Origin: Schmidtea polychroa
Lineage: Eukaryota
Direction of reading: 5' to 3'
NCBI GenBank assembly: GCA_044892525.1
Contig: CM097885.1
Span: 5,520,001 to 5,584,000 of the forward strand
Length of the DNA stretch: 64,000 nt
How positions within the stretch are numbered: the first letter of the stretch is position 1; the number at the start of each line of letters is the position of its first letter. Below the pieces are notes generated by a model that saw only the letters and a program-made list of their open reading frames with translations, ran no database searches and was not told the DNA's origin. This document shows positions 12,509-13,029 of this stretch, in pieces. The translations under genes were made by a program, and so were the position numbers.

Positions 12509-13029
12509 ATGTCTCATTTTATTGAAAATATTTTAAGCGAAGTTATCAACAAGAACATCATGGAAAGCCTCAGTTACTTGGTCGATCGGACAGAAAAAAT
12601 TATCGAAGGGAATCACATCAATTACGAAGATATGCTCAAGTCAGATTGCCTAGAAACAAAAAAGTTTTATTTTCACCGGATATTTAATTGTCTATGTAAT
12701 GACGAGATGAAGTGGACCCGAATAATAGTAAGGTTTGCTTATATAAAAATCATCATAGAAAAAGGTTTATGGGACTCCGAGCACTATTATCAGTGGTCTC
12801 AAGAAGTAATACTTTTATAATCTATATTTTAATAATATTTATTTTCTAGATAATCAAGTCCAAGTTTACACCATGGATAGAAGCCAATGGTGGATGGGGT
12901 GTATTGAACCAACTAGCTCGAAATGCAAAAGAAATCGACGAGGACAAAATGAAGTTTAAAACCTATGTAAAACTTGCAACAGGTGTTGCTATTTTGTATG
13001 TTATATCTCGATTTTTAAATAAAAATTAA
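12509..13029 (+). CDS. Spliced Bcl-2 family protein, 158 aa (exons 12509-12805 and 12850-13029)
   Basis: 44-nt GT-AG phase-0 intron; BH1-like DEMKWTRIIVRFAY, BH2 PWIEANGGW, C-terminal hydrophobic anchor LATGVAILYVISRF; CCAAT (12442) and TATAAATA (12473) upstream. Confidence 0.85.

What the first reader, a model, noticed from the sequence alone, without database searches (positions are those of the whole stretch)
12509..13029. Hidden spliced Bcl-2 homologue in the Polinton
Seen: removing a 44-nt GT-AG intron (12806-12849) extends the 103-aa ORF with IIKSKFTPWIEANGGWGVL...LATGVAILYVISRFLNKN*, giving BH1-like and BH2 motifs and a tail anchor. BH1 reads KWTR rather than NWGR. Known: adenovirus E1B-19K and other dsDNA viruses use Bcl-2 mimics to block apoptosis. 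Inference: this supports a real infectious cycle, and the altered BH1 may change partner specificity.
Basis: partly seen in the sequence, partly recalled or inferred. Interest (0 to 1): 0.75.

Follow-up and report, generated by a model that had tools for sequence, protein, structure and literature searches.

The report
Two-exon Bcl-2-like gene in a Polinton
A virus-like jumping element in this animal genome carries a small, likely spliced gene resembling the cell-death regulator Bcl-2, a kind of cargo already reported for such elements, so it is real but ordinary and does not by itself show that the element is infectious.

Summary
The coordinates are right. Exon 1 is 12509-12805, a 44-nt GT-AG intron follows at 12806-12849, and exon 2 is 12850-13029. 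Both pieces independently resemble Bcl-2 proteins, weakly and in the right order. Read through with X at the junction, they align without a gap to a viral Bcl-2 across it. Exon 2 is under coding constraint in the predicted frame: 11 of 18 listed differences are silent. Seven relatives stay conserved exactly up to the donor, and one contig shows a poly(A) tail just after the stop. No junction read was seen, and the fold could not be confirmed. The W-T-R form of BH1 is in 8 of 8 sequences, so it is a lineage trait.

The gene lies in a 13,040-bp Polinton copy with inverted repeats and a 6-bp target duplication but no DNA polymerase. Bcl-2 genes in adintoviruses/Polintons are already published (PMC8502044), and this scan noted the same gene before in another copy in this genome (e1-7879924). 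An infectious cycle does not follow, because planarian retrotransposons carry BCL2-like domains too. Verdict: a new member of a known kind, modest interest.

The parts
12509..12805 (+). Exon 1 of the Bcl-2-like gene (99 codons; BH1-like KWTR at residues 68-71; predicted helices 2-14, 17-31, 39-44, 48-61, 65-84, 90-98)
   Evidence: (Pfam Bcl-2 E 0.022, profile 8-64 of 100)
12806..12849 (+). Likely spliceosomal intron, 44 nt, GT-AG, phase 0, 89% A+T
   Evidence: junction not seen
12850..13029 (+). Exon 2 (59 codons and stop): BH2-like WIEANGGW and a moderately hydrophobic C-terminal tail
13018..13037 (+). AATAAA at 13018-13023, overlapping the last codons, and a poly(A) addition site behind 13037
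   Evidence: table 7 (run X15, one contig, 21 A not present in the genome)
12348..12509 (+). 3' remnant of an upstream neighbour transcript (AATAAA 12477; poly(A) behind 12509); other copies continue differently left of 12348
   Evidence: tables 7 and 8
11553..11938 (+). Left terminal inverted repeat of the Polinton (starts AGTAGAT; target duplication TTCTAT at 11547-11552)
24031..24592 (-). Right terminal inverted repeat (with a 43-bp tandem repeat inside); target duplication TTCTAT at 24593-24598
15278..15715 (-). Mini TATA-binding-protein gene of the element
   Evidence: Pfam TBP E 1e-14
15815..16441 (+). A32-like packaging ATPase
   Evidence: Pox_A32 E 1.5e-7
17067..18128 (+). rve integrase, with a 111-nt (TAT)n insert at 17455-17565 that has GT-AG ends
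18137..19210 (+). Putative minor capsid protein (by size and position only; no Pfam hit)
   Evidence: inference
19559..20776 (+). Putative major capsid protein (by size and position only; no Pfam hit)
   Evidence: inference
20817..21188 (+). Adenovirus-like cysteine protease
   Evidence: Peptidase_C5 E 1.9e-6

Best explanation
This is a two-exon accessory gene of a multi-copy Polinton/adintovirus-type element; it is likely spliced at a 44-nt intron into a 158-aa, divergent Bcl-2-like protein that would anchor in mitochondrial or ER membranes by its tail and likely delays death of the host cell while the element is active. Shown: the two coding pieces, their order and frame, constraint on exon 2, the place inside the element, and one polyadenylated contig. 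Inferred: splicing at 12805/12850, the Bcl-2 fold, the membrane anchor, and capture of host pro-death proteins (BH3-only, Bax/Bak-like) in the groove. The BH1 arginine that pairs with the BH3 aspartate is kept. The BH1 glycine is replaced by threonine throughout the lineage, which would narrow or retune binding. The benefit would hold for transposition inside a cell as well as for a virus, and this copy has no polymerase and could move only with help.
For: Exon 1: Pfam Bcl-2 is the best family for 7 of 7 aligned sequences (best E 0.0008). The profile's top six PDB hits are all BCL2A1 (best E 0.023), with BH1 in register, and the best Atlas clusters carry PF00452 (0.90, 0.89, 0.89). Exon 2: 39 of 40 PDB hits are Bcl-xL/Bcl-2, at BH2 (E 0.25-1.3 each). 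With X at the junction, the local score against a viral Bcl-2 (L008; Pfam E 1e-23) rises from 42 and 45 for the pieces to 66 (0 of 300 shuffles reach it). Residues 90-115 align without a gap across the junction, and Trp 96/108/115 match Trp 136/148/155. Conservation among the 7 relatives ends exactly at residue 99, and 6 of 7 continue with Val (a GT codon) and then short, variable tails. Exon 2: 11 of 18 listed differences are silent and none is a stop (expected share 0.215, P 3e-4); the other two frames give 1 silent each, with 1 and 4 stops. Three more 44-50-nt introns lie in the same element. A poly(A) tail follows 14 nt after AATAAA. Role of the BH1 Gly and Arg: PMC9027176 and PMC2836074, passages.
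Against: No junction was seen. In run X8 depth over the intron (390) is as high as beside it (286, 378), and two X15 contigs start 10 letters inside the intron, which fits unspliced molecules or DNA. All family scores are weak: exon 1 has 15.7 bits against Pfam's 31.4 cut-off and exon 2 has no Pfam hit, and the Atlas recognition value of 1761 is under the 2300 mark. The exon-1 model is poor (pLDDT 60) and matched no Bcl-2 structure. The acceptor at 12858 scores as well against the second viral Bcl-2 (66 vs 62). Mutating the BH1 glycine abolishes pro-survival activity in Bcl-2 and KSHV Bcl-2 (PMC2836074, passage). The tail is only moderately hydrophobic (1.64 vs 2.0 in L034). Some copies show 1-nt indels in exon 2 (12941; 13011), and this copy differs from 7 of 7 relatives at codon 75, mid-helix, so it may itself be decaying.
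Confidence: 0.6

Rival explanations
1. The gene is a real, spliced Bcl-2-fold protein, but with Thr in place of the BH1 glycine it no longer blocks apoptosis. It likely serves another purpose, such as damping innate signalling or autophagy, as some poxvirus Bcl-2-fold proteins do (recalled).
For: W-T-R is fixed in 8 of 8 sequences that are only 59-78% identical to the window's exon 1, so it is kept by selection. The glycine is needed in tested proteins. One of the top Atlas clusters also carries the poxvirus Bcl-2-like family PF06227 in 11% of its members.
Against: BH2, the BH1 Trp and Arg, and a tail anchor are kept, as in apoptosis regulators. ORFV125, with SPGR in place of NWGR, still binds BH3 peptides, more weakly (PMC9027176, passage).
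Confidence: 0.25
2. The family gene is genuine, but it is mostly unspliced or differently spliced (for example at the stronger-looking donor 12728 in this copy), so no full protein is made and it is passive cargo.
For: No junction was seen and intron sequence is present in both RNA-guessed runs. 12 of 28 GT/AG pairs tested give an open frame, among them 12728-12849 with a better donor consensus. This copy lacks the polymerase.
Against: Constraint on exon 2 in the predicted frame, conservation ending at the donor, and loss of the Bcl-2 alignment with the other donors (scores 29-48 vs 66).
Confidence: 0.1
3. The Bcl-2 likeness is chance, and the two frames are an unrelated small helical protein or two separate pieces.
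For: No single score passes a curated cut-off. No fold match was found. The WIEANGGW-coding pattern also occurs in 35 metagenome stretches with no relative of exon 1.
Against: Two independent pieces each rank Bcl-2 proteins first, in the right order and register.
Confidence: 0.05

Closest known systems
Adintovirus (animal Polinton/Maverick) Bcl2 accessory genes (Starrett et al. 2021, PMC8502044; section 3.2 and supplement text hits read)
   Same: A Bcl-2 homologue carried by an integrase-bearing Polinton-type element of an animal; 'Bcl2' labels three places on their maps.
   Different: The text read does not describe splicing or the BH1 sequence of those genes. The maps are figures and the stored supplement was cut, so a spliced case there cannot be excluded. 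Sequence kinship was not tested. This copy lacks PolB.
Viral pro-survival Bcl-2 proteins (adenovirus E1B-19K, KSHV KsBcl-2, avipox FPV039, iridovirus vBcl-2; PMC11209288 and PMC9027176, passages)
   Same: Small size, BH1- and BH2-like motifs in order, and a C-terminal tail; aligns to two viral Bcl-2 ORFs from IMG/VR (L008, L034).
   Different: BH1 reads KWTR instead of NWGR; the BH1-to-BH2 tryptophan distance is 39 against 44 (L008) and 42 (L034); the gene has an intron; function is untested.
Cellular BCL2A1/Bfl-1 and Bcl-xL
   Same: Best PDB sequence hits for exon 1 and exon 2 respectively.
   Different: Weak similarity (best E 0.023); no BH4 or BH3 motif detected; donor lineage not determined here.
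Intron-bearing cargo genes of nematode Mavericks (Widen et al., bioRxiv 10.1101/2022.07.12.499685, passages)
   Same: [quoted passage not shown]
   Different: Their cargo are WASP proteases and KRMA kinases, not Bcl-2.
BCL2-like domain of planarian Burro LTR retrotransposons (PMC6431247, passages)
   Same: A mobile element carrying a Bcl-2-like module.
   Different: A domain inside a retrotransposon polyprotein, not a separate spliced gene; kinship was not tested.

Membership tests
Bcl-2 family (PF00452) | Profile score above the curated cut-off (31.4 bits) | tested here: inconclusive
   Only the pieces were scanned: exon 1 has 15.7 bits and is the best family in 7 of 7 sequences; exon 2 has no hit.
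Bcl-2 family (PF00452) | Canonical BH1 NWGR | tested here: not met
   K/Q-W-T-R in 8 of 8 sequences; Trp and Arg are kept, Gly is not. Filed therefore as divergent Bcl-2-like, not as a canonical pro-survival member.
Bcl-2 family (PF00452) | BH2 motif downstream of BH1, in register | tested here: met
   WIEANGGW; 39 of 40 PDB hits are Bcl-xL/Bcl-2; Trp 96/108/115 match 136/148/155 of L008.
Bcl-2 family (PF00452) | Helical Bcl-2 fold | tested here: inconclusive
   Exon-1 models only, pLDDT 60 and 51; helix order fits in the first; no Bcl-2 match.
Bcl-2 family (PF00452) | C-terminal membrane anchor | tested here: inconclusive
   Best 17-residue hydropathy 1.64 at exon-2 residues 40-56, followed by a short polar end; 2.0 in L034.
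Viral pro-survival Bcl-2 | Binds BH3 proteins or Bax/Bak and blocks apoptosis | not testable with these tools
   Needs binding and cell assays.
Spliceosomal intron | GT-AG ends, pyrimidine tract, frame restored, size like neighbouring introns | tested here: met
Spliceosomal intron | Junction present in RNA | tested here: inconclusive
   Not among the 15 listed joints (10 not shown); contigs only, and RNA status is the tool's guess.
Polinton/Maverick (adintovirus) | [quoted passage not shown] | tested here: met
   11553-24592, TTCTAT on both sides.
Polinton/Maverick (adintovirus) | rve integrase, A32-like ATPase, adenain-like protease | tested here: met
   (the integrase hit, E 9e-5, is under the curated cut-off and carries a microsatellite insert)
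Polinton/Maverick (adintovirus) | Protein-primed DNA polymerase B | tested here: not met
   No such ORF; none of 52 further frames in the unassigned parts hits a polymerase family. This copy is a non-autonomous derivative.
Polinton/Maverick (adintovirus) | Jelly-roll major and minor capsid proteins | tested here: inconclusive
   ORFs of fitting size and place, no Pfam hit; not folded.

The most novel reading that the evidence does not exclude
A Polinton lineage has fixed a glycine-less BH1 (W-T-R) in a host-spliced Bcl-2-fold protein that no longer acts as a general death blocker. It picks one host partner, or a non-apoptotic target, to keep long-lived host cells alive through bursts of element activity, as part of an early gene set that depends on host splicing and is read ahead of a TBP-driven late set.
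Probability: 0.15. Interest if true: 0.55.

Novelty: new member of a known kind. Interest (0 to 1): 0.27.

Why it matters
The gene is invisible to ORF callers: all seven database relatives are called as 103-112-aa ORFs without exon 2. Host-control genes of Polintons may therefore be undercounted wherever they are spliced. It adds one more case of an anti-death gene in these elements and offers a natural test of what a Bcl-2 groove does without the BH1 glycine. It does not settle the open question of whether animal Polintons make infectious particles.

Tried and rejected
- No whole genome is held for the window, so copies could not be aligned at DNA level.
- Relatives in IMG/VR with exon 1, the putative capsid and the ATPase: none confirmed. 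Metagenome contigs with the exon-1 alignment: none.
- Motif scans of metagenome and prokaryote contigs gave 35 and 15 loci, none related beyond the motif.
- No spliced or named relative was found in the protein collections. Only seven unnamed exon-1 ORFs came up; exon 2 found nothing. Longer and shorter length classes were not searched.
- Run search: no RNA holder listed on record.
- Folding: the exon-1 model had pLDDT 60 and no match in PDB, BFVD or the wide VIA search. A second model with two viral Bcl-2 stretches added to the alignment was worse (pLDDT 51) and was not searched.
- The two exon products sent as separate chains gave no verdict.
- Profile-profile comparison of exon 1 with L034 gave probability 5%.
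- An X8 contig starts exactly at 12850. That fits a splice branch, but with 105 contigs laid on 1141 bases it is too weak to count.
- The intron scan (3 hits on both strands of 64 kb, all in the element) used rules set after seeing these introns, so it is descriptive only.
- Rejected: that KWTR is damage private to this copy (8 of 8 have W-T-R); that the gene is host DNA outside the element (it lies within the TIRs); that it proves infectivity.

Full report
Observation. An ATG at 12509 opens a 103-aa frame ending at 12820. GT at 12806 and AG at 12849 bound 44 nt that are 89% A+T and end in a T-rich tract, between two stretches of 33% G+C. Exon 1 has 99 codons and exon 2 has 59 plus a stop, so the junction is phase 0 and the product 158 aa. 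The BH2-like pattern occurs once in the window, at 12874-12897, against 0.10 expected in shuffles with two mismatches allowed.

Setting. The gene lies in an element spanning 11553-24592 (13,040 bp) that begins and ends with AGTAGAT in inverted orientation and is flanked by the 6-bp duplication TTCTAT. It encodes an A32-like ATPase, an rve integrase, an adenain-like protease and a mini TBP. Two ORFs are read as minor and major capsid only from size and position, since Pfam has no hit. No polymerase was found: none among the ORFs, and none of 52 further frames in the unassigned parts hit a polymerase family. The copy is thus a non-autonomous derivative. Reads of four runs show a large, varied family, and other copies continue differently left of 12348, so a deletion near the left TIR is likely (inference). 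No genome is held and I did not identify the host. An earlier AI note on this genome calls it a flatworm. The 44-50-nt introns lie at the low edge of the 45-85-bp peak reported for planarians (PMC13594981, passages), and Polintons are PIWI-silenced in planarians (PMC8532177, passages). That is circumstantial only.

Is it Bcl-2-like? Each piece points the same way, weakly. Exon 1 matches Pfam Bcl-2 positions 8-64 (E 0.022, 15.7 bits, cut-off 31.4), and Bcl-2 is the best family for 7 of 7 aligned sequences (best E 0.0008). The profile's first six of 13 PDB hits are BCL2A1, with KWTR opposite NWGR; with a further relative, FPV039 and Bak join the list. The Atlas puts PF00452 clusters first (0.90), but flags low recognition. 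For exon 2, 39 of 40 PDB hits are Bcl-xL or Bcl-2, at BH2; Pfam and the Atlas give nothing. A pattern scan of IMG/VR gave 120 loci, of which 2 encode Bcl-2 proteins (L008, L034). Read through with X at the junction, the product scores 66 against L008, versus 42 and 45 for the pieces, with 0 of 300 shuffles reaching it. Residues 90-115 align without a gap across the junction, and three tryptophans fall in register. Against L034 the scores are 62 versus 36 and 43. Structure did not help: only exon 1 was folded, the models were poor (pLDDT 60 and 51), and no Bcl-2 structure was matched. The fold stays unconfirmed.

Is the intron real? For: seven unnamed relatives, 59-78% identical, stay conserved through residue 99 and then diverge into short tails, 6 of 7 beginning with Val, the residue a GT donor encodes. 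Of the 40 difference rows shown (102 more hidden), 18 fall in exon 2. Of these, 11 are silent and none is a stop in the predicted frame (P 3e-4 against a share of 0.215), while the other frames give one silent change each. These differences come from related subfamilies and are not fully independent. Three other 44-50-nt GT-AG segments split small genes of the same element. One contig of run X15 matches 12973-13037 exactly and carries 21 A that the genome lacks, 14 nt after AATAAA, so some copy is transcribed through exon 2. Of 28 GT/AG pairs tested, 12 leave a frame open; of the eight scored, only those with donor 12806 keep the Bcl-2 alignment. Against: no 12805/12850 joint is among the 15 listed. 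Depth over the intron in X8 is no lower than beside it, and two X15 contigs begin ten letters inside the intron. These are contigs of runs only guessed to be RNA. The acceptor at 12858 aligns as well to L034. Some copies carry 1-nt indels in exon 2. I put the intron at about 85%.

BH1. W-T-R is present in 8 of 8 sequences, so it is a lineage trait and not damage. The arginine that pairs with the BH3 aspartate is kept; the glycine is not. Both matter for partner binding, and ORFV125 with SPGR binds Puma about 250-fold more weakly than KsBcl-2 (PMC9027176, passages). Changing the glycine abolishes protection by Bcl-2 and KSHV Bcl-2 (PMC2836074, passage). Changed specificity is therefore plausible, and so is loss of the anti-death role; neither was tested. 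This copy also differs from all seven relatives at codon 75, in the middle of the long central helix, and from nearly all read depth in the three runs covering it, which suggests a drifting copy.

Mechanism. Most likely the element's gene is transcribed and spliced by the host, and the protein docks by its tail on mitochondria or ER and holds pro-death Bcl-2 proteins in its groove, so the cell survives expression and integration of the element. The gene structure and sequence likeness are shown; splicing, fold, location and binding are inferred. Rivals are a non-apoptotic Bcl-2-fold role (0.25), passive or mis-spliced cargo (0.1) and chance likeness (0.05).

What is known. Starrett et al. state that adintovirus homologues of Bcl2 and IAP were observed (PMC8502044; section 3.2 read whole, supplement text hits at three places; the maps are figures and the stored file was cut). 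A later preprint says most mammal-associated adintoviruses carry anti-apoptotic homologues or candidate oncogenes (PMC11071296, passages). [quoted passage not shown] Planarian Burro retrotransposons carry a BCL2-like domain (PMC6431247, passages), so such a gene does not require a virion stage. A review of viral Bcl-2 does not contain the word Polinton (PMC11209288, passages). I saw no paper on a spliced Polinton Bcl-2 with a W-T-R motif in the top-20 listings; subscription journals and Repbase are not covered. PMC9341512 (passages) and PMC2885619 (abstract) added nothing decisive. This scan noted the same gene in another copy of this genome (e1-7879924) and within an accessory cluster (e1-7907815), and noted intron-bearing Polintons in other genomes; these are unchecked AI notes and are not counted as support.

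Verdict. It is a divergent, likely spliced Bcl-2-like accessory gene in a polymerase-less Polinton copy: a new member of a known kind. Interest 0.27; 0.55 if the glycine-less groove proves to have a new job.

Noticed in passing
window 17455-17565: The integrase carries a 111-nt (TAT)n insert with GT-AG ends and the same TTTAGGTA word at both borders; it keeps the frame and could be spliced out as a newly arisen intron.
   Followed up: partly
window 21675-21990 (+): A small multi-exon gene with 50-nt (21710-21759) and 45-nt (21823-21867) introns; no family hit.
   Followed up: partly
window 15147-15104 (-): Another 44-nt GT-AG segment right after an ATG, leading into the 14796-15143 frame.
   Followed up: partly
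window 12348-12509: An upstream transcript is polyadenylated right at the Bcl-2 start codon (run X15), so the two genes abut; that upstream gene appears cut off in this copy.
   Followed up: partly
window 12728: A second, stronger-looking donor inside exon 1 would remove the central helix if used; it overlaps the codon where this copy differs from its relatives.
   Followed up: partly
window 15278-15715 (-): A 145-aa TBP-like gene head-to-head with the ATPase; noted many times by this scan in this genome.
   Followed up: no
window 3673-5521 and 45732-47580: An 1849-nt, 99% identical inverted pair, each with an intronless 539-aa ABC-transporter-family ORF.
   Followed up: no
window 25621-28993: A perfect 1516-nt inverted repeat with a GIY-YIG ORF in each arm and an RT fragment between them, Penelope-like (label recalled).
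   Followed up: no
window 19197-19613 and 19559-20776: The small basic ORF overlaps the start of the putative major capsid frame, whose first ATG is well inside the open frame.
   Followed up: no
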